From Patescibacteria group bacterium (GTDB lineage Bacteria > Patescibacteriota > Patescibacteriia > UBA10025 > JAHIVO01): a stretch of DNA of 64,000 bases. Positions 1 through 23,664 of this stretch are shown here, in pieces. Position 1 is the stretch's first letter. Every line of letters starts with the position of its first letter. The notes under the pieces were generated by a model. The model was not told the DNA's origin and did no database searches. It saw only the letters and a program-made list of their open reading frames with translations. Both the position numbers and the translations under genes were made by a program. The stretch covers positions 193,699 to 257,698 of the forward strand of contig JAQULM010000001.1 of assembly GCA_028718605.1 (NCBI GenBank), in the 5' to 3' direction.

Positions 1-3000
1 CTGAATGGCAACGGTGCCCTCGATGCCGGTGAACCGGCAATCGAAGGATGGAAGATGTACCTGAATGGCGGGAGCGAGCAGCTCACCAACGCCAGCGGCT
101 ACGCCTCATGGTATGTCCACACCGGCGGTACGTTCACCGTATCAGAAGAGAACCGCACTGGCTGGACACATACTTCCCCTGCCTCAATCGATGTTTCTGT
201 CACGTCAGGTGATTCTGCCAAGTTTGTCTACTTCTATAACTTCGAGAATGTTGATGTGAAAGTCAACAAGCTCATCGATACTGATGGCGACATTGCGACA
301 ACCGGCGATCGCACCGTTAAACAAGGCTGGACCGTCCAGCTCTGGAAAGGCGCTGCGCAAATCGGTACCGACCAAATAACTGACGTGAACGGCTCGTACA
401 CCTGGACCGATCTCGGCCCTGGCACATATACCGTGAAAGAAATCTTCAATAGCACTGAGTATACAGCGCTCACGAATACGGAATACACCTTTACCGTCAG
501 CTCGGGCACTGATGTGGAGCGGACGTTCATCAACTTCGAGAACATCGATGTGACGGTCTGCAAGTACGTTGATATGAACGGCGACGGCGACATAACCGGC
601 GATCCAGCATATACCAATAGCTGGGAAGTCACGCTCGGCAACAGCACACAGCTGACCGGTGCGAACGGCTGCGTCACCTATACGAACGCTGGTCCCGGCA
701 ACTACGATGTGACTGAAGACACGTCTGTCGCAGGCTGGGTGCAGACATACCCACGCGGTGGCAGCTATAACTTTGATGCGGTTTCAGGCGTGAATCGGAC
801 GTTCAACTTCGGTAACTTCGAAACCCCACACCTCACCGTCATCAAGCATGTCATCAATGATAATGGCGGTACAGCAGTCGCTTCTGACTTCACCATGAAT
901 GTCAGCGGGACAAACGTCTCTGACGACTCGTTCCCTGGCGATGAAGCTGGCACCACTGTCACGTTGGACGCAGGCGCGTACAGCGTTGATGAGGATGCAT
1001 TCTTCGGCTATGCCAAGACGATCGGCGCAGATTGCGCAGGGTCTGTTGTCAGCGGTGACAATAAGACCTGCACGATTACCAACGACGATATTGCGCCGGA
1101 ACTGACGGTTGTGAAGCACGTCATCAATGACAACGGCGGCTCAGCAGTCGCTGCTGACTTCACCATGAACGTCACCGCGACCAATGTTTCCGATGATTCA
1201 TTTCCCGGAGATGAGATTGGCGTCACCGTCACCCTCGACCAGGGCGCATACAGCGTAGACGAAAATGCGTTCTACGGGTATGCAAAGACGCTCAGCGCGG
1301 ACTGCACTGGCACCATTAATGTCGGTGAAACAAAGACTTGCACGATTACCAATGACGATATTCAGCCCAAACTGACCGTGACCAAAGTTGTCATCAATGA
1401 CAACGGCGGCACCGCAGTTGTGGCTGACTTCCCGTTGTTCGTGGATGCGACAAGCGTCGTCTCGGGCGTGCAGAACGGCTTCGATGCTGACGATTACGTC
1501 GTATCAGAAACCAACCTCTTCGGTTATTCAGCAACCATCTCGGGCGATTGCGACGTGAACGGTAACGTTACGCTCAATGTCGGTGACGTCAAGTCATGCA
1601 CCATCACAAATGACGATATCGCACCGGAACTGACGGTTGTGAAGCACGTCATCAATGACAACGGCGGCTCAGCAGTCGCTGCTGACTTCACCATGAACGT
1701 CACCGGAACGAACGTTTCTGACGATTCATTCGCTGGCGATGAGGCTGGTGTAACTGTTACTCTTGACCAGGGTGTATACGGCGTTGATGAGAATGCGTAC
1801 GTTGGCTATGCTAAGACACTTGGTGCGGATTGCACAGGCACCATCAATGTTGGCGAAACCAAGACCTGCACCATCACCAACGATGACATCCCCGGCAAAA
1901 TCTCCGGCTACAAGTACGACGACCACGGCACAGCGCTCCAGGGCTGGACAATCTGCATCATACAGAACGCAGCGCCGGTTAATGGGCTCGTCCCGCCGCC
2001 GTTCTGCACGGTTACTGACGCCAACGGCTACTACGAATTTGCCGGCCTCAATGTCGGCACGTTCACGATCAGCGAAACGCTAAAGGGCGGCTGGACACAG
2101 CTCGAACCTGTCGGCGTTACACACGTCATCGATGTTGTCCCTGGCACCGATTCGCAGAATAACAACTTCGTGAACCGCTTGAATGAGTTCAATGTTGACA
2201 TTGAGAAGAGCGCACCGGCAACCGTCGTTGCAGGTGATGAAATGACATACACGCTCGACTGGACGATTACTGGCAACACACCGGTATTCAACGCCCATGT
2301 GAGTGACGTCCTGCCTGCAAACACGACATTTGTGTCAGCTGCCAACGGCGGCACCTACGACAGCGCCACCAACACCGTGACCTGGGATCTCGGGACAGTA
2401 AACCCGGATGACAGCGGTACGGTTACCTTCGTTGTGAAGACAGCTTCGCCGCTCGATAACGCTACCGTTATCGAAAATACCGGCGAGGTATGCGGCACCG
2501 GGTATATCGTGCCTGAGGACGAGAACGAACTCTTTAACCCAGATGGTACGACCAAGTGCGATTCCGACAAAACCACGACGACCATCGAATCAGCGCCGAT
2601 CCTCGGCATTGAGAAGACAAACGACCGGCCAGTCGCAAATCCCGGTGATGTCGTGAACTACACAATCACCTGGAGCGTCGATGGCAATTCCAAGGCAACC
2701 AACGTTACCTTGACCGACACCGTGCCGGTTAACGAAGAAGTAGACATTACCACAATCAGCAACGGCGGCACCTACGATGCAGCGACGAGGATCATCACCT
2801 GGGATCTCGGTACGCAAATACCGCACGCCGAGGGCACTGTCACCTACTCCGTGGATCTCGATACGCCGCTCGCGAATGGCACAACGATTGTCAACGTTGC
2901 CAAACTCATGTGCGATGAAACAGATCCGCTGTTCGTAGAAGATGACTCGACGGTAGTTGTGAAGTCGGGCCCGATCCTCGAGATCGACAAGACGGTCAAC

Positions 3001-3854: not shown

Positions 3855-4214
3855 TTAACGTGCCAATCGTAACAATAATTCGATGACGCCTGTTATATTA
3901 TGATAAACATCTCTATTGGTAATTCTAATGATTCGAATACCGAGCGATTCAATAAACTTCTGGCGTTGGTTATCATATACGATCGTTTGTTTTGATAGAA
4001 AATGTGACGGCCCATCAACCTCGATGCCAAGCCTAAGCCGGGCACAATAAAAATCAATCACATACCCGCTAACACTATACTGCCGGCGGAACTTACAACC
4101 AGCCAACTGCTTGCCTTTCAAATAACGCCACAGCACAATCTCAGCGCGTGGTGCTGAATTCCTCAAGCCCTGGCGTCGGCGCTTCATCGAATGTGTGTTA
4201 TAGATGACTGTCAT
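3855..4214 (-). CDS. DUF559 family endonuclease-domain protein (Vsr/very-short-patch-repair-like fold)
   Basis: The protein shows the DUF559 signature ...EIVLWRYLKGKQLAGCKFRRQYSVSGYVIDFYCARLRLGIEVDGPSHF...IRIIRITNRDV. An RBS aaaggggagg lies upstream of the ATG. Confidence 0.75.
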   Translation of the reverse strand: MTVIYNTHSMKRRRQGLRNSAPRAEIVLWRYLKGKQLAGCKFRRQYSVSGYVIDFYCARLRLGIEVDGPSHFLSKQTIVYDNQRQKFIESLGIRIIRITNRDVYHNITGVIELLLRLAR

Positions 4215-4265
4215 AGTGCCGGTAGCCTTACCTCCCCTTTAAACTAACTTGGTGATTCCTCCGCC

Positions 4266-4440
4266 GTCTGTTCTCTTCCCCTCCTCATTTCGAGGAGGGG
4301 AAAACGTGACAAGTATGCTATGCCACAGCGTTCGTAGAGAGGTGGTGGAGTTATCCTCCCCTCCTTAATTGAGGAGGGGAAAAAGCGATACATGAGCCTT
4401 ACCTGAACGTCAGGAGGGGGGTGGTTGAGCCATGCCCCCC
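4266..4440. repeat. Locus A of a dispersed palindromic repeat family: two or more units of a CCCCTCCTC-loop-GAGGAGGGG hairpin followed by the conserved block GTTCGTAGAGRGGTGGTKG
   Basis: An 11-bp stem hairpin sits at 4266-4292 and a second hairpin at 4347-4370. The block cgttcgtagagaggtggtggag is at 4320-4340, and degenerate gaggggggtggttgagcc at 4403-4420. The same family recurs at 8941-9170. Confidence 0.7.
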
Positions 4441-4603
4441 AACGCATACAACAACTCCCCACGTAGGTTATGGGGAGGTTACTGCTTCCACTTTATCATT
4501 ACCTATTACAATAATCAATATCCCCTAAACAAGCATTGACACCCCCAATTGCGTGTGATAAGGTGGCGTATTCAATATCCACAGCCCCTCAACACTTCAT
4601 ATT

Positions 4604-4638
4604 TGACAAAACCGGTATATATTACGTATAATGTGGGC
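4604..4638 (+). promoter_or_regulatory. Sigma70-like promoter TTGACA-N18-TATAAT upstream of the secreted-protein gene
   Basis: The sequence is tttgacaaaaccggtatatattacgtataatg. Confidence 0.55.
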
Positions 4639-4689
4639 GCTTACGAACAATTTAATACATATCATTTAACCCCAATTAATAAAGGAACA

Positions 4690-5487
4690 ATGACTATGAA
4701 AAACGCATCATTGCGTCTAACCAACCCCCTCCCCATGGTCGTAGCGGGAGTGTTTATGTTATCTCTAGCAGTTTTACTTTTTATCCCCCAGCAAGTTGCG
4801 GCAAAGGTAGAAACTCCAAAGATTGATATTTGTCATGCCGAGAGTTCTGATGTAAATCCATATAATTCTTTATCAGTTGATAAAAATGCAACTGCAGGTG
4901 GTCATGATGACCACGATGGGGGTATTTATCCCGCGAATCCGTGGGGCGATATTATCCCTTCATATCAATACAGCTACCAGGCTTGGGAAGTAATTGGCTC
5001 TCATCAAGGATGTCCAACAGATAGTGCGTTATATACATCATGGGATTCAAGTAAACCTTGCAAAAAGAAAATAAGTGGACATTGGAAATATACTGATTAT
5101 ATTAACATTGACGATTATGGCTGGGTAACACATGAGGATCAATATCCTGGTAAAAACTGGACTACTGAAGGACAAGAAATTTACAACAACGGTTGTGTAA
5201 TACCCCCTGTATATTCAGTTGAATCCTATGAAAGTGATTATTCAACAGTAAAAAATGACTTCTATCAGGGCGAGATCGTTTATGGAAAAGGTTGGACTGA
5301 ATTCGTAGGTAATAAAGATTTACGACTTGAATTTAAAAATCCTAACGGAGATTCCGTGGAAATTTGCGGCGAAAGGAAAGGGACGTGGTCGCAATGTCCT
5401 CATAACCTAAGTAATGATGCCCTTACTGGAACTTGGACAATTGAATTACAGCAGAAAGGTGATAAATATTGGAGCTGGAGTGATTAG
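4690..5487 (+). CDS. AT-rich secreted or membrane-anchored protein module (signal/anchor helix MVVAGVFMLSLAVLLFIP). It is in-frame with, and probably the N-terminal part of, the downstream LPXTG protein, interrupted by a TAG
   Basis: The ATG at 4690 is preceded by aaaggaac. The N-terminal hydrophobic helix is followed by AAKVETPK. The ORF ends at TAG 5485-5487, in the same frame as ORF 5542-8865. Confidence 0.6.
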   Translation: MTMKNASLRLTNPLPMVVAGVFMLSLAVLLFIPQQVAAKVETPKIDICHAESSDVNPYNSLSVDKNATAGGHDDHDGGIYPANPWGDIIPSYQYSYQAWEVIGSHQGCPTDSALYTSWDSSKPCKKKISGHWKYTDYINIDDYGWVTHEDQYPGKNWTTEGQEIYNNGCVIPPVYSVESYESDYSTVKNDFYQGEIVYGKGWTEFVGNKDLRLEFKNPNGDSVEICGERKGTWSQCPHNLSNDALTGTWTIELQQKGDKYWSWSD

Positions 5488-8865: not shown

Positions 8866-8892
8866 AACATTTCACAGGCATTCAAGATAGAA

Positions 8893-8925
8893 AAGCGGGC
8901 TCTACCAAGGGCCTGCTTTTCATTT
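8893..8925 (+). terminator. Putative terminator hairpin after the surface-protein gene
   Basis: The sequence agcgggctctaccaagggcctgct forms a stem with two G-U pairs and is followed by tttcattt. Confidence 0.35.
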
Positions 8926-8940
8926 ATTTGTTGTGCATGT

Positions 8941-9170
8941 ATCCTTCCCCTCCTCTCTGAGGAGGGGAAAACGTTATACGCACGCCGTTCCATAAAAGTT
9001 CGTAGAGGGGTGGTTGGTCCTCCCCCCCTCCTTTCCAAGGAGGGGAAATGCAATAAGCAAATTAATCCGCATTGTTTCTAGAGGGGTGGTTGGCTCTCTT
9101 CCCATCCTCTCTGAGGAGGGAAAAGGCACTCCATCTGCATTGCCGCGGTGTTTGTAGAGGGGAGGTGATG
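8941..9170. repeat. Locus B of the palindromic repeat family: three tandem units of ~78 nt, each a CCCCTCCTC-loop-GAGGAGGGG hairpin followed by GTTCGTAGAGGGGTGGTTGG
   Basis: Hairpins lie at 8945-8969, 9025-9045 and 9101-9121, the last with a bulge. Conserved blocks lie at 8997-9018, 9075-9094 and 9150-9168. Confidence 0.75.
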
Positions 9171-9202
9171 CCCTTTGAAGCGTCCTCGCGTAGGAGGAAC
9201 CC

Positions 9203-9231
9203 TTGACAAACCTTTGCGGGTATGGTAGTAT
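9203..9231 (+). promoter_or_regulatory. Sigma70-like promoter TTGACA-N17-TAGTAT upstream of the CAP-domain gene
   Basis: The sequence is ccttgacaaacctttgcgggtatggtagtatg. Confidence 0.5.
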
Positions 9232-9263: not shown

Positions 9264-10958
9264 ATGTGGTATAATAATTACAGTCACTTTTCCATAAAGA
9301 AATATATGGACAAAGCAGCCCCGAAAAAAAAGGAACTCCACGAGCATATTATCCACCACTGCAAGAAGCTGCCTCATCATGCATGGCACTTTTTGGTACC
9401 GCACAAGGGAAATAACCACAAGCCCCACGCATTACGGCCAACCGCCCTTCGGCTGTACGTTTTTTCGATTATTGCCGTAAAAGTCTTCGTGGGCAGTTTC
9501 TTGTTCCTCTCGTACCCGTCAGCGGGTGAATTTGCTGCAATTGCACAAGCAGACATCTTGAGCCTTACGAATGCCTCGCGAGCAGAAGCAGGCATCGCCC
9601 CCCTGTCGCTGAACGCTGCGCTGAATAAAGCGGCACAGCTGAAAGCCCAGCATATGATCGCCAATAACTACTTTGCGCATACCGCGCCGGACGGTACAAA
9701 ACCGTGGTCATTTCTGAAACAGGCTGGATACAGCTACACCGCTGCGGGCGAAAATCTCGCCATGGACTTCACCGAGGCCGCGACCGTACACACCGCGTTC
9801 ATGAACAGCGAGTCGCACAAGAAAAACATCATGAATTCAAAATATACGCAGATGGGCATCGCAGTCTTGGATGGCGAGCTCGATGGCGTTTCAACAACTA
9901 TTCTTGTCGAGTTTTTCGGTGCCCCATATGAAGCTGCTGCTGCGCCAACCACCCCAACACCAACGCCGACGCCGACACCCACGCCAACCACTCCAACACC
10001 GACACCAACGCCAACACCCACTCCAACGCCGACACCAACGCCAACGACTCCAACGCCGACACCAACGCCAACGACTCCAACGCCGACACCAACGCCAATA
10101 CCCACTCCAGTACCCCAGTATTACCGGGCTGAGCTGACTGACCAGAGTGCTACAGAGCTTGGAATCAAGACGCTCGAACAAATCAGCTATTGGGTTGAAT
10201 TCAAGAATACCGGCACGATTACGTGGAATAATTCTGGCGAATATTTCGTTGCCCTGAATGTCAATAATCCGATCGGCAGGCACAGTGCGTTCGAAGATGA
10301 AACGTGGGTTGAATACTACCGCCCAGCCATACTCAAACAGCCACGCGTTGCCCCGGGAGAAATCGGGCGGTTTGAATTCACTTTGAAGTCACCCGACGAA
10401 GCTGGCGCATACGAAGAATCCTTCGGCATCGTCGCGGAGAATAAAGCATGGATCGATGGCGGCACCATCGAGCTCCCGATCGTCGTCGTCGCGCCGCCTG
10501 AACAGACATCAGAAATGGAAGTCAACGTTATACCGACCACGACAACTCCCCAAACCAACGCGAACACCAATACCGCTGCGCCGACGAATACAAACCAATC
10601 CCCAACGAATACAAACACCACGCCCGCAGCTGTTACCGAGACACCGCTTGTCAACGATAATACCAATGCACAAATAGTAACCCCCGAACAGCGTGCAGTC
10701 ATCGTCGCTGGCGCAGAGCAAAAAGGCGAGGAAGCGAAGGGCTTTATCGGTAAAATTCTCGAATACTCGAAGCGGTTCTATCTGGTGTTTGTCATCTTCC
10801 TTGTTGTTGCCCTGCTCATCAACATCCTGGTCGAGATCAGAATACAGCAGCCGCACATGATTATTCAGACAATTGTCGTCATTATCATCGCCGTAACTGC
10901 CATTCTTCTGAATCCCCATTTCCTCGAAAAAGTACCGCTCGCGCTCAGGATTGCCTAG
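9264..10958 (+). CDS. Membrane-anchored CAP/SCP/PR-1 domain protein (YkwD-like) with a long Pro-Thr linker, a beta-sandwich domain of unknown function, an N/T-rich linker and a C-terminal TM segment
   Basis: The CAP motifs ...LNKAAQLKAQHMIANNYFAHTAPDGTKPWSFLKQAGY...GENLA...HTAFMNSESHKKNIMNSKYTQMGIAV are present. The PT linker reads PTTPTPTPTPTP.... The ORF-track start at 9222 falls inside the predicted -10 element, so the ATG at 9264 (or 9306) is preferred. Confidence 0.8.
   Translation: MWYNNYSHFSIKKYMDKAAPKKKELHEHIIHHCKKLPHHAWHFLVPHKGNNHKPHALRPTALRLYVFSIIAVKVFVGSFLFLSYPSAGEFAAIAQADILSLTNASRAEAGIAPLSLNAALNKAAQLKAQHMIANNYFAHTAPDGTKPWSFLKQAGYSYTAAGENLAMDFTEAATVHTAFMNSESHKKNIMNSKYTQMGIAVLDGELDGVSTTILVEFFGAPYEAAAAPTTPTPTPTPTPTPTTPTPTPTPTPTPTPTPTPTTPTPTPTPTTPTPTPTPIPTPVPQYYRAELTDQSATELGIKTLEQISYWVEFKNTGTITWNNSGEYFVALNVNNPIGRHSAFEDETWVEYYRPAILKQPRVAPGEIGRFEFTLKSPDEAGAYEESFGIVAENKAWIDGGTIELPIVVVAPPEQTSEMEVNVIPTTTTPQTNANTNTAAPTNTNQSPTNTNTTPAAVTETPLVNDNTNAQIVTPEQRAVIVAGAEQKGEEAKGFIGKILEYSKRFYLVFVIFLVVALLINILVEIRIQQPHMIIQTIVVIIIAVTAILLNPHFLEKVPLALRIA
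9940..10110 (+). repeat. Imperfect tandem hexanucleotide repeat (ccaacg/ccgaca) encoding the PT linker
   Basis: The DNA reads ccaacaccaacgccgacgccgacacccacgccaacc.... The ORF-track minus-strand GVGVGV ORF is an artefact of this repeat. Confidence 0.8.
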
Positions 10959-22372: not shown

Positions 22373-23664
22373 GTCTTTTTCTTAGGCTGATAATACTTCG
22401 TGCCAACCAGTTTTTTGGGCAAATAGTCCTGTTTCCCCTCCTCCTCAGAATAATCATGCGAATATTTATACCCCTTGTGGTAATCGAGCTCCTTCATCAA
22501 ATCGGTAACTGCGTTCCTCAAATGCAACGGCACCGGCTCATTCATGCTGTCCTTCACGTCCTGTTTTGCAGCCATCAAGCCTTTATATGCTGAATTATCT
22601 TTCGGCGCCTTGGCGAGGTACACGACACCGTGGCCAAGATTAATCTGACATTCTGGGTAGCCAATAAGTTTGACTGCATTGAATACGTCGAGTGCTATGC
22701 GTAACGCGCCAGGATCCGCCATCCCCACGTCTTCTGATGCGAAAATTACCATTCGCCGGGCGATGAATTCAGGGTCTTCCCCCGCCTCTACCATGCGATT
22801 CAGCCAGTAAAGAGCGCCGTCTGGGTCTGACCCACGCATCGACTTTATGAATGCAGAAATGACATTATAATGTTCCTCGCCTTTTTTATCATACTGTAAT
22901 GCCTTGTGCTGCAGCGCGTCTTCAATCGTTTTTACGTCTAAATGTTTAATGCCACGTTTATCCGCTTTCGTTACTTTAACAGCAATTTCAACTGCGTTGA
23001 GCGCGGTACGGGCATCTCCGTTTGCACCCTGGATTAAAAGGTCCAATGCTTTGGGTGCAAGGGAAACTTTTTGGTTACCAAGCCCGTGCTCCTTATCCAG
23101 AAGCGCACGCTTGATAATTCTCGATAATTCAGGCACACCATGCCGCTGCATGACGAACACGCGCGAGCGGGACAGCAATGGCGCGATCACCTCAAAGGAC
23201 GGATTTTCGGTCGTGGCGCCGATGAGGGTAATGATGCCGTTCTCGACGTACGGCAGGAATGCGTCCTGCTGGGCCTTGTTCCAACGGTGGATTTCATCGA
23301 CAAACAGTATAGTTCGCGTACCGTGGAGCTTGCGGCGGTCAACGGATTCGCGGACAACCCGGCGCAGGTCATCAAGCCCCGACGTGACCGCACTGATACC
23401 GACAAAATACGATTTTGTCATGTTGGCAACGATGCGCGCGAGTGTAGTTTTGCCTGATCCCGGCGGTCCCCAGAATATTATTGAAAAAATCTCGTCATTC
23501 TCAATAGCCCGGCGCAATATCTTCCCCTTGCCGATAATCTCTTCCTGCCCGACAAAATCCTCAAGCTTGTCAGGCCGGATGCGGTCAGCCAGCGGCGCCT
23601 GGAACCGCAGGTCGCCTTCCAGCCGCGCGTCAAACAGATCCTTTTTTTGTTTACTCCTTTTCAT
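22369..23664 (-). CDS. rarA: Replication-associated recombination protein A (AAA+ ATPase)
   Basis: The motifs RPDKLEDFVGQEEIIGKGKILRRAIENDEIFSIIFWGPPGSGKTTLARIVA and ILFVDEIHRWNKAQQDAFLP are present. Confidence 0.9.
   Translation of the reverse strand: MKRSKQKKDLFDARLEGDLRFQAPLADRIRPDKLEDFVGQEEIIGKGKILRRAIENDEIFSIIFWGPPGSGKTTLARIVANMTKSYFVGISAVTSGLDDLRRVVRESVDRRKLHGTRTILFVDEIHRWNKAQQDAFLPYVENGIITLIGATTENPSFEVIAPLLSRSRVFVMQRHGVPELSRIIKRALLDKEHGLGNQKVSLAPKALDLLIQGANGDARTALNAVEIAVKVTKADKRGIKHLDVKTIEDALQHKALQYDKKGEEHYNVISAFIKSMRGSDPDGALYWLNRMVEAGEDPEFIARRMVIFASEDVGMADPGALRIALDVFNAVKLIGYPECQINLGHGVVYLAKAPKDNSAYKGLMAAKQDVKDSMNEPVPLHLRNAVTDLMKELDYHKGYKYSHDYSEEEGKQDYLPKKLVGTKYYQPKKKT

What the first reader, a model, noticed from the sequence alone, without database searches (positions are those of the whole stretch)
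4266..4440. Dispersed palindromic repeat family (CCCCTCCTC-loop-GAGGAGGGG plus a GTTCGTAGAGGGGTGGTTGG box), locus A
A composite element of ~75-80 nt occurs at two intergenic loci, 4266-4440 and 8941-9170, in two to three tandem copies each. Each unit is a GC-rich hairpin whose 3' arm, GAGGAGGGG, is a perfect anti-Shine-Dalgarno target mimic, followed by a conserved box. The hairpin loops differ between copies (atttc, ttaatt, tct, tcc) while the stems are conserved. That pattern points to selection on structure, as seen for REP/BIME-like elements or a structured RNA. Both loci lie immediately downstream of the giant LPXTG genes and upstream of secreted-protein genes. The element was tested and rejected as a CRISPR array, because the 'spacers' are conserved and the 'repeats' vary.
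Basis: seen in the sequence. Interest (0 to 1): 0.6.

Follow-up and report, generated by a model that had tools for sequence, protein, structure and literature searches.

The report
Triplex-motif repeats beside a DUF559 nuclease gene
The repeats are real and are a Patescibacteria version of the poorly understood BoxC/"intrastrand triplex" hairpin repeats of E. coli; here and in every other lineage I sampled, such repeats sit next to a small DUF559 endonuclease gene, a link I found in no paper.

Summary
There are five ~78-nt units on the + strand, two at 4269-4431 and three at 8938-9172, and no other copy in the 64 kb.

Each unit has a pyrimidine arm CCCCTCCTY, a 3-5 nt loop and a purine arm RAGGAGGGG. 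About 35 nt further on lies a G/T box, GGGGTGGT(T). That box is the mirror image of the purine arm. This three-block layout matches E. coli BoxC/PIT/TMECO "intrastrand triplex motif" repeats, which are known, of unknown function and tied to unstable loci. The main difference is a long second loop (31-33 nt instead of 3).

Locus A is not simply "downstream of an LPXTG gene". It abuts the start of a minus-strand DUF559 (Vsr-like) endonuclease gene and lies between that gene and a promoter-like site. The same arrangement recurs in about ten Patescibacteria lineages. All 13 DUF559 loci retrieved by protein, from several phyla including E. coli ycjD, carry a related element within ~350 nt.

Locus B is a gene-less insertion that syntenic relatives lack. 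Unit number differs between strains.

It is not CRISPR and not a coding repeat, and it matches no Rfam family. My verdict is a new variant of a known kind. The DUF559 link is a testable lead.

The parts
4269..4352 (+). Unit A1: pyrimidine arm 4278-4286, loop 4287-4291, purine arm 4292-4300, linker, mirror G/T box (core GAGGTGGTG 4339-4347 within box 4330-4349)
   Evidence: covariance model R1 77.5 bits; 8 of 9 triads
4354..4431 (+). Unit A2: pyrimidine arm 4358-4366, loop AATT, purine arm 4371-4379, mirror box core GGGGTGGTT 4418-4426
   Evidence: R1 62.2 bits; 8 of 9 triads
8938..9020 (+). Unit B1: pyrimidine arm 8947-8955, loop TCT, purine arm 8959-8967, mirror box core GGGGTGGTT 9007-9015
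   Evidence: R1 73.8 bits; 8 of 9 triads, reached by 20 of 2000 shuffles
9023..9090 (+). Unit B2: pyrimidine arm 9025-9033, loop TCC, purine arm AAGGAGGGG 9037-9045, mirror box core GGGGTGGTT 9083-9091
   Evidence: R1 51.4 bits; 9 of 9 triads, reached by 1 of 2000 shuffles
9091..9172 (+). Unit B3 (degenerate): CCCATCCTC 9101-9109, loop TCT, GAGGAGGGA 9113-9121, box core GGGGAGGTG 9159-9167
   Evidence: R1 60.5 bits; 8 of 9 triads
4229..4237 (-). Proximal mirror box GGGGAGGTA on the DUF559 sense strand, 14 nt upstream of the start codon. With hairpin A1 it forms a second element half in inverted orientation (4224-4309, minus strand).
   Evidence: R1 hit on the minus strand, 40.8 bits, E 3e-10; 8 of 9 triads
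3855..4214 (-). Stand-alone DUF559 (Vsr-like PD-(D/E)XK) endonuclease gene, 119 aa. It is the constant neighbour of the element.
   Evidence: Pfam PF04480 E 3.9e-27; only DUF559 gene in the window; homologues carry the element upstream
4455..4477 (-). Conserved 5' stem-loop CTCCCCA..TGGGGAG followed by a U-rich run. It lies between the promoter-like site and the array on the DUF559 sense strand.
   Evidence: terminator-like hit on the minus strand; the same feature at the same place in L003, L004, L005, L009, L010, L030, L031, L042, L043
4490..4518 (-). Sigma-70-like promoter candidate TTGATT-17-TAAAGT. It is weak (8 of 12) and below the scanner's threshold.
   Evidence: read from sequence; positionally equivalent strong promoters in relatives, e.g. 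L009 TTGACA-17-TAGAAT and L003 TTGACC-17-TAGAAT and L043 TTGACG-17-TACAAT
8890..8921 (+). Terminator of the 1107-aa LPVTG gene. It marks the left boundary of the locus B insertion.
   Evidence: alignment with syntenic loci
9203..9231 (+). Promoter of the CAP-domain gene (TTGACA-17-TAGTAT). It marks the right boundary of the locus B insertion.
   Evidence: conserved CTTGACAAA...TATGGTA in L006 and L010, with no array between terminator and promoter there

Best explanation
The units are DNA repeats of the BoxC/PIT/'intrastrand triplex motif' kind. Each has a homopyrimidine arm and a complementary homopurine arm that form a 9-bp hairpin. A third G/T block, GGGGTGGT(T), mirrors the purine arm, so on one strand it could lie antiparallel on the purine arm as G*G-C and T*A-T triads.

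In Patescibacteria the element is fixed at the 5' end of a stand-alone DUF559 (Vsr-like) endonuclease gene. There it takes a palindromic form: box' - linker - hairpin - linker - box, about 15 nt, then ATG. It lies downstream of a promoter-like site, so it is probably transcribed as that gene's leader.

Arrays arise by tandem duplication of the (box' + hairpin) half. Gene-less copies such as locus B arise by insertion or duplication.

Shown:
- the anatomy and the mirror relation between box and purine arm;
- the linkage to DUF559;
- locus variability between relatives.

Inferred:
- the element acts mainly at the DNA level, as a non-B structure or slippage hot spot, as reported for E. coli TMECO loci;
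- its tie to DUF559 is functional (cognate nuclease, or a nuclease gene cassette that travels with or targets the element);
- once transcribed, its C-rich box' can mask the G-rich box just upstream of the start codon.
For: 1. Mirror relation. The box gives 8-9 of 9 allowed purine-motif triads with the reversed purine arm in most units and relatives. B2 scores 9/9 (reached by 1 of 2000 shuffles), L054 9/9 (2 of 2000) and L002 9/9 (0 of 2000). The antiparallel score is at least the parallel score in all but two of the hairpins that have a box.

2. Other families keep the relation with different blocks.
- L045: C7/G7 followed by G7.
- Photobacterium: AAGGGGAGGG-TTA-GGGTGGGGTT.
- L067: AAAGGGAGGG-CT-GGGGTGGGTT.
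- E. coli: GGGAGAGGG-TTA-GGGTGAGGG.

3. Match to the published family. TMECO is defined as CCCTCNCCC N3-6 GGGNGAGGG N3 GGGNGAGGG, has 23 copies in K-12 and sits in unstable loci (PMC4666352).

4. Where the linker is long, in phage, L044 and L002 copies it is itself a hairpin of variable sequence and length (CAGCCG/CGGCTG, CAGCCCCA/TGGGGCTG, GGCAGC/GCTGCC, TTTCAGC/GCTGAAA). That brings the box back to the base of the main hairpin.

5. DUF559 linkage.
- All 13 loci retrieved by protein alone carry an element within ~350 nt.
- Strict pyrimidine/purine hairpins occur at 1.18 per kb near DUF559 and 0.06 per kb elsewhere.
- In L044 a 38-bp perfect inverted repeat of the element brackets the gene.

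6. Instability.
- There are 2 units in L006 and 3 in L007, which are the same species.
- Locus B is absent from the syntenic intergenic region of L006 and L010.
- Homology between L005 and L009 ends inside the hairpin.
- L010 holds a paralogous copy of the cassette without the DUF559 ORF.

7. Transcription context.
- A promoter-like site and a 5' stem-loop lie at the same place in at least 8 lineages.
- Hairpins are more stable on the DUF559 sense strand in 17 of 20 cases, with 22 G.U pairs against 3.
Against: - The second loop is 31-33 nt and poorly structured in the window, far outside the 1-6 nt used to define triplex motifs. Triplex folding here is therefore doubtful.
- Stable triplex formation was not supported in vivo even for TMECO (PMC4666352 discussion).
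- G-rich boxes also match G-rich arms fairly well in the parallel control (6-9 of 9), and several relatives have GGGGCGGT, which gives one bad triad.
- The ninth triad does not covary convincingly with the A/G at the top of the purine arm (11 of 19, hand count).
- Only two loci occur in 64 kb, so 'dispersed' is weak for this genome.
- The DUF559 link is an adjacency. No direction of causation is shown, and nuclease genes may simply land in unstable loci.
- The window's own promoter is a poor match (8 of 12).
Confidence: 0.55

Rival explanations
1. Purely cis-regulatory RNA. The array is the structured 5' leader of the DUF559 mRNA. The C-rich box' (ACCACCCCTC) pairs with the G-rich box just upstream of the start codon and occludes ribosome loading, keeping a potentially toxic nuclease silent. 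This resembles the RBS-sequestering hairpins that control phage free-standing homing endonuclease genes. Extra units would be spare anti-SD copies.
For: - A promoter-like site, then a 5' stem-loop, then the array, then the gene: this order is conserved in at least 8 lineages.
- MFE folds of single-unit leaders pair box' with the proximal box in L003, L009, L030, L031, L042 and L014.
- L042 has a perfect 16-bp complement.
- The RNAalifold consensus on 10 leaders contains this helix.
- Cognate box'/proximal-box duplexes are stronger than non-cognate ones (-20.1 vs -18.1 kcal/mol, permutation p = 0.022).
- G.U asymmetry favours the sense strand.
- In phage copies the purine arm itself is the SD of the next gene (L061 AAGGAGGGGAGCTTTTTATG).
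Against: - The proximal G box lies 14-17 nt from the ATG, which is too far for a normal SD.
- The helix pairs are almost invariant, so there is no real covariation.
- A recurrent A.A mismatch (L031, L043) is natural for mirror boxes but not for a selected helix.
- Pairing is weak in the window itself (-13.2 kcal/mol) and in L004.
- Locus B, the second L010 locus, L014 and L039 have the element but no DUF559 ORF.
- In other phyla the element lies downstream of the gene (E. coli, Photobacterium, Sinorhizobium) or on both sides (L044, L045, Picosynechococcus).
Confidence: 0.25
2. Bystander association. The repeats are ordinary selfish or neutral palindromic repeats that mark recombination-prone 'junk' intergenic sites, and small selfish nuclease genes (DUF559, GIY-YIG) accumulate at such sites. 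No functional relation exists between them.
For: - TMECO loci are rearrangement hot spots (PMC4666352).
- In E. coli, ycjD occupies the place of the eefRABCD operon in some phylogroups (PMC12817139).
- L005 has a GIY-YIG gene where L009 has DUF559.
- Phage copies mostly lie next to structural genes such as portal, Mu F and baseplate J, not next to DUF559.
Against: - In all 13 independent DUF559 loci the neighbour is this particular three-block element, across genomes of 36-65% GC.
- The distance from the end of the element to the ATG is similar (14-19 nt) in Patescibacteria and in an Ignavibacteriales-like contig.
- L044 has the gene bracketed by a perfect 38-bp inverted repeat.
Confidence: 0.12
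3. Independent structured small RNA genes transcribed from the + strand (hairpin followed by box), or a degenerate CRISPR-like or MITE/IS-end array.
For: - Regular ~78-nt period.
- Conserved stems with variable loops.
- The L010 gene-less copy sits between a promoter-like sequence and a terminator.
Against: - No Rfam match, even at E up to 10.
- No + strand promoter.
- Hairpins are less stable on the + strand.
- The hairpin is followed by an A-run, not a U-run, so it is not a terminator.
- The 'spacers' are homologous between units and between species.
- No cas gene or transposase among the ORFs flanking the two arrays that were scanned against Pfam.
- The 72-aa ORF through array A has no family and is not conserved: L004 reads MRLGV* from the same ATG.
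Confidence: 0.05

Closest known systems
E. coli BoxC / PIT elements / TMECO intrastrand triplex motif (Holder et al. 2015, PMC4666352; the earlier work by Bergler, Bachellier and Hoyne & Maher is cited from that paper's text and from my own memory)
   Same: - Three blocks on one strand: a 9-nt pyrimidine block, a 3-6 nt loop, the complementary purine block, then a second G-rich block that mirrors the purine block.
- G/C-rich whatever the genome GC.
- Intergenic.
- Loops less conserved than blocks.
- Sometimes paired in inverted orientation.
- Loci vary between close relatives.
- Function unknown.
- A copy lies right beside E. coli's DUF559 gene ycjD.
   Different: - Block sequence: CCCCTCCTY/RAGGAGGGG/GGGGTGGT instead of CCCTCNCCC/GGGNGAGGG/GGGNGAGGG.
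- T*A triads instead of A*A triads.
- The second loop is 31-33 nt instead of 3, so the published search (loops of 1-6 nt) could not have found it.
- Units are in head-to-tail arrays of 2-3.
- Low copy number in the stretch seen.
- The host is a Patescibacteria bacterium, whereas TMECO was reported only in Proteobacteria.
REP/REPIN elements with their RAYT transposase (REPtron)
   Same: - Short intergenic palindromic repeats.
- A single nuclease-type gene flanked by copies of the repeat, in inverted orientation in L044 and L045.
- The repeat outnumbers the gene.
- Singlets, doublets and clusters all occur.
   Different: - The neighbour is a Vsr-like PD-(D/E)XK DUF559 protein, not an IS200/IS605-type Y1 (HUH) transposase.
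- There is no conserved 5' GTAG outside this genome.
- The element has a third, mirror block.
- No evidence of mobilisation by the protein.
RBS-sequestering hairpins that control free-standing or intron-encoded homing endonuclease genes of T4-like phages (I-TevI, mobE; recalled from memory, not checked here)
   Same: - A small selfish-type nuclease gene preceded by a stable hairpin built from SD-like and anti-SD-like sequence.
- Predicted masking of the region just upstream of the start codon.
   Different: - Here the hairpin lies 55-75 nt from the start codon and the masked G box 14-17 nt from it.
- The element also occurs without any gene, and downstream of genes in other phyla.
- Regulation has not been tested.

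Membership tests
BoxC / PIT / intrastrand triplex motif (TM) | Three consecutive blocks on one strand: a pyrimidine block, the complementary purine block, and a third G/A- or G/T-block that mirrors the purine block (G*G, A*A, T*A triads) | tested here: met
   8-9 of 9 triads in all five window units and most relatives. B2 scores 9/9, reached by 1 of 2000 shuffles.
BoxC / PIT / intrastrand triplex motif (TM) | First loop of 3-6 nt | tested here: met
   Loops are ATTTC, AATT, TCT, TCC, TCT.
BoxC / PIT / intrastrand triplex motif (TM) | Second loop short (3 nt in TMECO; 1-6 nt in the ITxF definition) | tested here: not met
   In the window, 37-39 nt separate the end of the purine arm from the best-scoring 9-nt box core. 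That is 31-33 nt when measured from the AAA that follows the arm to the AGAG that starts the box. In phage, L044 and L002 copies the linker is a hairpin. A 3-nt loop is seen only in L067 and in Proteobacteria.
BoxC / PIT / intrastrand triplex motif (TM) | Match to the TMECO consensus CCCTCNCCC N3-6 GGGNGAGGG N3 GGGNGAGGG | tested here: not met
   The block sequences differ (compared with PMC4666352). The match is to the architecture, not to the sequence family.
BoxC / PIT / intrastrand triplex motif (TM) | Loci variable between close relatives | tested here: met
   2 vs 3 units in L006 and L007. Locus B is absent in syntenic L006 and L010. Synteny between L005 and L009 breaks in the hairpin.
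BoxC / PIT / intrastrand triplex motif (TM) | The single strand forms a triplex in vitro (CD/NMR) | not testable with these tools
   Needs oligonucleotide biophysics.
REP/BIME-REPIN with RAYT | An IS200/IS605-like Y1 transposase (RAYT) gene flanked by the repeats | tested here: not met
   The flanked gene is DUF559/MTES_1575 (PF04480, PF18741). A genome-wide RAYT search was not possible.
REP/BIME-REPIN with RAYT | Tens to hundreds of copies per genome | tested here: inconclusive
   Only 2 loci in 64 kb and 1-2 per 20-kb locus in relatives. The whole genome was not available.
CRISPR array | Near-identical direct repeats separated by unrelated spacers, with cas genes nearby | tested here: not met
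   Whole units are only 63-75% identical. The 'spacer' parts are homologous between units and between species. No cas domain among the ORFs flanking the two arrays that were scanned.
Any Rfam 15 RNA family | Covariance-model match at or near the gathering score | tested here: not met
   Only two tRNAs in the window. The best sub-threshold hits at the two loci are far below gathering. Nothing in related loci.
SD-sequestering 5' leader | Lies between promoter and start codon, and a helix masking the ribosome-binding region is supported by covariation | tested here: inconclusive
   The position is met at locus A and in relatives but not at locus B. The helix is predicted, but its pairs are invariant, the masked box is 14-17 nt from the ATG, and the cognate-pairing test gives p = 0.022.

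The most novel reading that the evidence does not exclude
YcjD-like stand-alone DUF559 endonucleases are the cognate nucleases of BoxC/PIT/triplex-motif repeats, as RAYT transposases are for REP/REPIN elements. The protein would recognise the hairpin or triplex-prone element that flanks its own gene and drive its duplication, spread or the local rearrangements seen around it. That would give a mechanism for a 30-year-old orphan repeat family and for the 'genomic instability' reported at these loci. The Patescibacteria arrays in this window would be one lineage's version of that system.
Probability: 0.3. Interest if true: 0.8.

Novelty: new variant of a known kind. Interest (0 to 1): 0.6.

Why it matters
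BoxC/PIT/TMECO repeats have been known in E. coli since the 1990s. They have no function, no known mechanism of spread, and only a statistical link to unstable loci.

This window adds three things:
1. The same three-block architecture exists in Patescibacteria, in a form with a long second loop that published triplex searches would miss.
2. That form occurs as tandem arrays.
3. In every lineage sampled, including E. coli's own ycjD, the element sits next to a small DUF559 nuclease gene of unknown function.

If the link is functional, two orphans explain each other: a widespread repeat and a widespread domain of unknown function. The question also becomes directly testable in E. coli, by deleting ycjD and by cleavage and binding assays on BoxC DNA.

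If the link is only a bystander effect, the finding is a modest extension of a known repeat class to a new phylum.

Tried and rejected
- CRISPR. Rejected: units are 63-75% identical, the 'spacers' are homologous between units and species, and no cas gene is present among the flanking ORFs scanned.
- Coding repeat or small protein. Rejected: the period is 79/78/76 nt, not a multiple of 3. The 72-aa ORF at 4244-4462(-) has no Pfam family and is not conserved; L004 reads MRLGV*.
- Intrinsic terminators. Rejected: on the + strand the hairpin is followed by an A-run, and on the minus strand it is preceded, not followed, by the U-run.
- Rfam. No family at gathering or at E up to 10.
- Other copies in the window. 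The GAGGAGGGGAAA at 22432 lies inside a coding region. The covariance model with filters off finds nothing else.
- Searching the phage element against GenBank phages by blastn found nothing. tblastn of the DUF559 protein against phages gave one unannotated hit.
- Box'/proximal-box covariation. The helix is predicted, but its pairs hardly vary.
- Hairpin covariation. Only the loop-closing pair varies on both sides. MAFFT mis-registers some hairpins by 1-2 columns, which lowers the counts.
- Ninth-triad covariation between the A/G at the top of the purine arm and the base after GGGGTGGT. Result: 11 of 19 fit, not convincing (hand count).
- E. coli ycjD presence against BoxC copy number. In 60 evenly sampled chromosomes, ycjD+ genomes have 11-24 places (median 18) and ycjD- genomes have 1-16 (median 2). 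The difference follows phylogroup: B2 strains have 1-2, and the O157:H7, strain 042 and UMN026 genomes have 11-15 (supplement of PMC4666352; PMC12817139). I do not count it as evidence.
- Chi-site and tRNA-like readings of GGGGTGGT were considered from memory and dropped for lack of fit.
- Two context look-ups returned no DNA.
Full report
**1. The observation**

There are five head-to-tail units on the + strand: A1 4269-4352, A2 4354-4431, B1 8938-9020, B2 9023-9090 and B3 9091-9172.

Each unit has four parts:
- a pyrimidine arm CCCCTCCTY;
- a loop of 3-5 nt (ATTTC, AATT, TCT, TCC, TCT);
- a purine arm RAGGAGGGG followed by AAA(A);
- about 25 less conserved bases and then a box, GTTCGTAGAGGGGTGGTTGG or a variant.

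B3 is degenerate (CCCATCCTC/GAGGAGGGA). Unit spacing is 79, 78 and 76 nt, and units are 63-75% identical.

The box is far beyond chance: 3 hits with up to 3 mismatches, against 0.00 expected. A covariance model built from 17 units of this and related genomes scores the five units at 51-78 bits. With filters off it finds no further copy in the 64 kb.

Tandem Repeats Finder does not report the arrays. Rfam has nothing at either locus.

**2. Where the window comes from, and the real neighbour**

The window is part of contig JAQTSE010000003.1 of assembly GCA_028711455.1. Its DUF559 protein is labelled 'Patescibacteria group bacterium' in NCBI.

The two large flanking genes do end in LPVTG plus a membrane anchor and carry DUF11/SpaA domains.

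Locus A, however, does not follow the first of them directly. A 119-aa gene on the minus strand (3855-4214) lies between, and it is a DUF559 / Vsr-like PD-(D/E)XK endonuclease (PF04480, E 3.9e-27). Array A begins about 55 nt from its start codon.

**3. Relatives**

A pattern scan of species-representative genomes found the composite in three Patescibacteria MAGs and in one contig binned to a Bacteroidota MAG. A metagenome scan added seven more Patescibacteria-like contigs.

I also fetched the contexts of DUF559 homologues chosen by protein alone. All five that returned DNA (P0002, P0003, P0009/P0012, P0013, P0011) have the element directly upstream of the gene. Every DUF559 ORF in the whole data set has it.

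Read on the DUF559 sense strand (the window's minus strand), the order is always the same:
- a sigma-70-like promoter, e.g. L009 TTGACA-17-TAGAAT, L003 TTGACC-17-TAGAAT, L043 TTGACG-17-TACAAT. The window's own TTGATT-17-TAAAGT at 4490-4518 is weak, 8 of 12;
- a 5' stem-loop CCTTCCC..GGGAAGG with a U-run (window 4455-4477);
- one to three copies of [box' ACCACCCCTC - about 35 nt - TTTT - hairpin];
- about 40 nt;
- a G-rich proximal box (GGGGAGGTGG-like; window 4229-4237);
- 14-17 nt, then the ATG.

**4. What the box is**

The box is not an independent motif. GGGGTGGT(T), read 5' to 3', is the mirror image of the purine arm (A)AGGAGGGG with T in place of A.

Laid antiparallel on the purine arm, it gives only G*G and T*A (or A*A) combinations. 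Those are the triads of a purine-motif triple helix.

The scores are as follows:
- All five window units give 8-9 of 9 allowed triads. B2 scores 9/9, reached by 1 of 2000 shuffles of its own downstream sequence.
- Most relatives give 9/9.
- The proximal G box on the other strand does the same with hairpin A1 (GGGGAGGTA, 8/9).
- The parallel control is lower or equal in all but two of the hairpins that have a box, but often not by much, because everything is G-rich.

Stronger support comes from families whose blocks differ but keep the relation:
- L045: C7/G7 then G7.
- Photobacterium: AAGGGGAGGG-TTA-GGGTGGGGTT.
- An Ignavibacteriales-like contig: AAAGGGAGGG-CT-GGGGTGGGTT.
- E. coli: GGGAGAGGG-TTA-GGGTGAGGG.

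In phage contigs, L044 and L002, the long linker between purine arm and box is itself a hairpin. Its sequence and length vary while the pairing is kept (CAGCCG/CGGCTG, CAGCCCCA/TGGGGCTG, GGCAGC/GCTGCC, TTTCAGC/GCTGAAA). That would bring the box back to the base of the main hairpin.

**5. The known family**

A full-text search for the E. coli sequence led to Holder et al. 2015 (PMC4666352). They describe the motif, earlier called BoxC and then PIT element, as 'TMECO':
- consensus CCCTCNCCC N3-6 GGGNGAGGG N3 GGGNGAGGG;
- 23 copies in K-12, always intergenic;
- loops less conserved than blocks, and sometimes two copies in inverted orientation;
- forms a triplex in vitro as a single strand, but stable triplex formation was not supported in vivo;
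- no promoter or terminator activity;
- loci much more rearranged between strains than control loci;
- mechanism unknown.

The window's element shares the architecture and the behaviour. It fails two defining details: the second loop is 31-33 nt instead of 1-6, and the block sequences differ. I therefore file it as a variant of that kind, not as a TMECO member.

**6. Instability, as in the known family**

- L006 and L007, the same species from two samples, have two and three units.
- Array B fills the space between a terminator (8890-8921) and a promoter (9203-9231). In the syntenic intergenic regions of L006 and L010 those two features lie close together with no array between them, so B is an insertion of about 250 nt or a loss elsewhere.
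- L005 and L009 are syntenic up to the loop of the hairpin. Beyond it L009 has DUF559 and L005 has a GIY-YIG gene within 3-5 kb of unrelated DNA.
- L010 holds a second copy of the whole cassette, leader and terminator, without the DUF559 ORF.

**7. The DUF559 link beyond Patescibacteria**

More distant homologues were again chosen by protein alone.

| Locus | Organism or source | Position of the element relative to DUF559 |
|---|---|---|
| L044 | 36% GC contig | Gene bracketed by inverted copies, with a 38-bp perfect inverted repeat |
| L045 | 65% GC contig | Flanking inverted C7/G7 versions |
| L062 | Photobacterium | Four tandem ~148-nt units downstream |
| L063 | Azospirillum | Upstream |
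| L064 | Picosynechococcus | Both sides |
| L065 | Sinorhizobium | Downstream |
| L067 | Ignavibacteriales-like contig | A doublet ending 19 nt before the ATG |
| L066 | E. coli K-12 ycjD | A TMECO/BoxC copy just downstream, and a C-rich hairpin at the gene's 3' end |

The E. coli downstream sequence recurs a median of 16 times per E. coli genome.

Counting only perfect pyrimidine/purine hairpins of at least 7 bp, the density is 1.18 per kb within 350 nt of DUF559 genes and 0.06 per kb elsewhere in the same loci. The 'elsewhere' hits are window locus B, the second L010 locus and the continuation of the Photobacterium array.

I found no paper in the held library that links DUF559/ycjD with these repeats.

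In phage contigs the element is mostly not next to DUF559 (1 of 16). It sits at gene junctions, directly before start codons, with the purine arm serving as the SD.

**8. DNA or RNA?**

For an RNA role:
- the conserved promoter and 5' stem-loop;
- the predicted pairing of box' with the proximal G box in single-unit leaders;
- a cognate-versus-non-cognate duplex test, p = 0.022;
- hairpins more stable on the DUF559 sense strand in 17 of 20 cases, with 22 G.U pairs against 3. This includes the three hairpins of locus B.

Against a purely RNA explanation:
- the helix pairs do not covary;
- a recurrent A.A mismatch fits two mirror boxes better than a selected helix;
- the proximal box is 14-17 nt from the ATG, too far for an ordinary SD;
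- pairing is weak in the window itself;
- gene-less copies exist;
- in other phyla the element lies downstream of the gene or on both sides.

My reading is that this is a DNA-level element that is also transcribed here and is likely to influence DUF559 expression.

**9. A tempting test that does not hold**

In an even-step sample of 60 E. coli chromosomes, the 37 with ycjD have 11-24 BoxC places (median 18). The 23 without it have 1-16 (median 2).

The published per-strain counts show that this follows phylogroup. B2 strains have 1-2, the O157:H7 genomes have 11, and strains 042 and UMN026 have 12-15. ycjD is confined to phylogroups A, B1 and C and two sequence types. It is suggestive, but it is not independent evidence.

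**10. Verdict**

The element is a Patescibacteria variant of the BoxC/PIT/triplex-motif class. It is arranged in tandem arrays and tied to a DUF559 endonuclease gene.

The cross-phylum DUF559 link is the unexpected part. It rests on 13 of 13 sampled loci, not on a genome-wide test.

Noticed in passing
L005:6540-6700 compared with L009:9860-10010: Two related Patescibacteria genomes share the upstream gene, promoter, 5' stem-loop, box' and the pyrimidine arm. Homology stops in the hairpin loop. L009 continues with the purine arm and DUF559. L005 continues with unrelated DNA and a GIY-YIG nuclease gene, whose own SD lies in a different hairpin.
   Followed up: partly
L010:15990-16260: A second, paralogous copy of the whole DUF559 cassette (box/box' hairpin, two hairpins, proximal G box, shared 3' sequence TCGATGTGACA..ATAAACC and terminator), but without the DUF559 ORF. 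It looks like an 'empty' allele or a precise deletion.
   Followed up: partly
L046, L049, L051, L057 (IMG/VR contigs); e.g. L049:851-922: Doublet versions (ACCACCCCC - two hairpins - GGGGGTGGT) lie just after the Portal_Mu domain, inside uninterrupted ORFs of Mu-like phage portal genes. In L057 the portal and Mu F domains are in one ORF across the element. I did not resolve whether this is an in-frame insertion, a gene junction or a recoding site.
   Followed up: partly
L054:6510-6570, L061:5525-5585 (IMG/VR contigs): Single phage copies (AGCT-hairpin-TGG-small hairpin-AC-GGGGTGGTT-CTC) sit in reverse orientation immediately before the start codons of baseplate J and Mu F-like genes. AAGGAGGGG is then the SD, locked in the hairpin.
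   Followed up: partly
L066:4280-4480 (E. coli K-12, minus strand, 3' end of ycjD): The last ~45 nt of ycjD are duplicated downstream: GAGACGGTGCTGGAGAATATTC.. occurs twice. The present C-terminus ..RRSPSP* runs into a C-rich hairpin, as if an element insertion had replaced the original end of the gene.
   Followed up: no
window 4433-4447 (minus strand) and the equivalent place in L003, L004, L009, L010, L030: A conserved ATGCGTTGG-like start lies 5-11 nt after the SD-like 3' arm of the 5' stem-loop. It opens a leader ORF of very variable length (5 to about 70 codons) that overlaps a G-run able to pair with box'. This could be a translational-attenuation device, but it is not conserved enough to call.
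   Followed up: partly
L014:4230-4380: The same kind of promoter plus CCTTCCC..GGGAAG stem-loop plus U-run also precedes a RelE/Gp49-like toxin gene. The 5' stem-loop may therefore be a general leader feature of small selfish genes in these genomes.
   Followed up: no
window 4520-5356: About 0.8 kb between array A's promoter region and the start of the next surface-protein gene has no called gene in the NCBI record (L001). A perfect TTGACA-18-TATAAT promoter lies at 4603-4632 (+), and a 312-aa ORF (4549-5487) has no Pfam match.
   Followed up: no
window 835-1431 and 9943-10109: A 270-nt tandem repeat (2.2 copies) lies inside the first LPVTG gene. A CCAACG-type Thr/Pro-rich low-complexity repeat lies inside the CAP-domain gene. 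Both are ordinary coding repeats of surface proteins.
   Followed up: no
L012, L022, L024, L026 (soil metagenome contigs, 58-65% GC): Look-alike elements: GACCACCCCG ... two or three CCCCTCCTC-loop-GAGGAGGGG hairpins ... CGGGGTGGT. No DUF559 ORF is detectable on these short contigs.
   Followed up: partly
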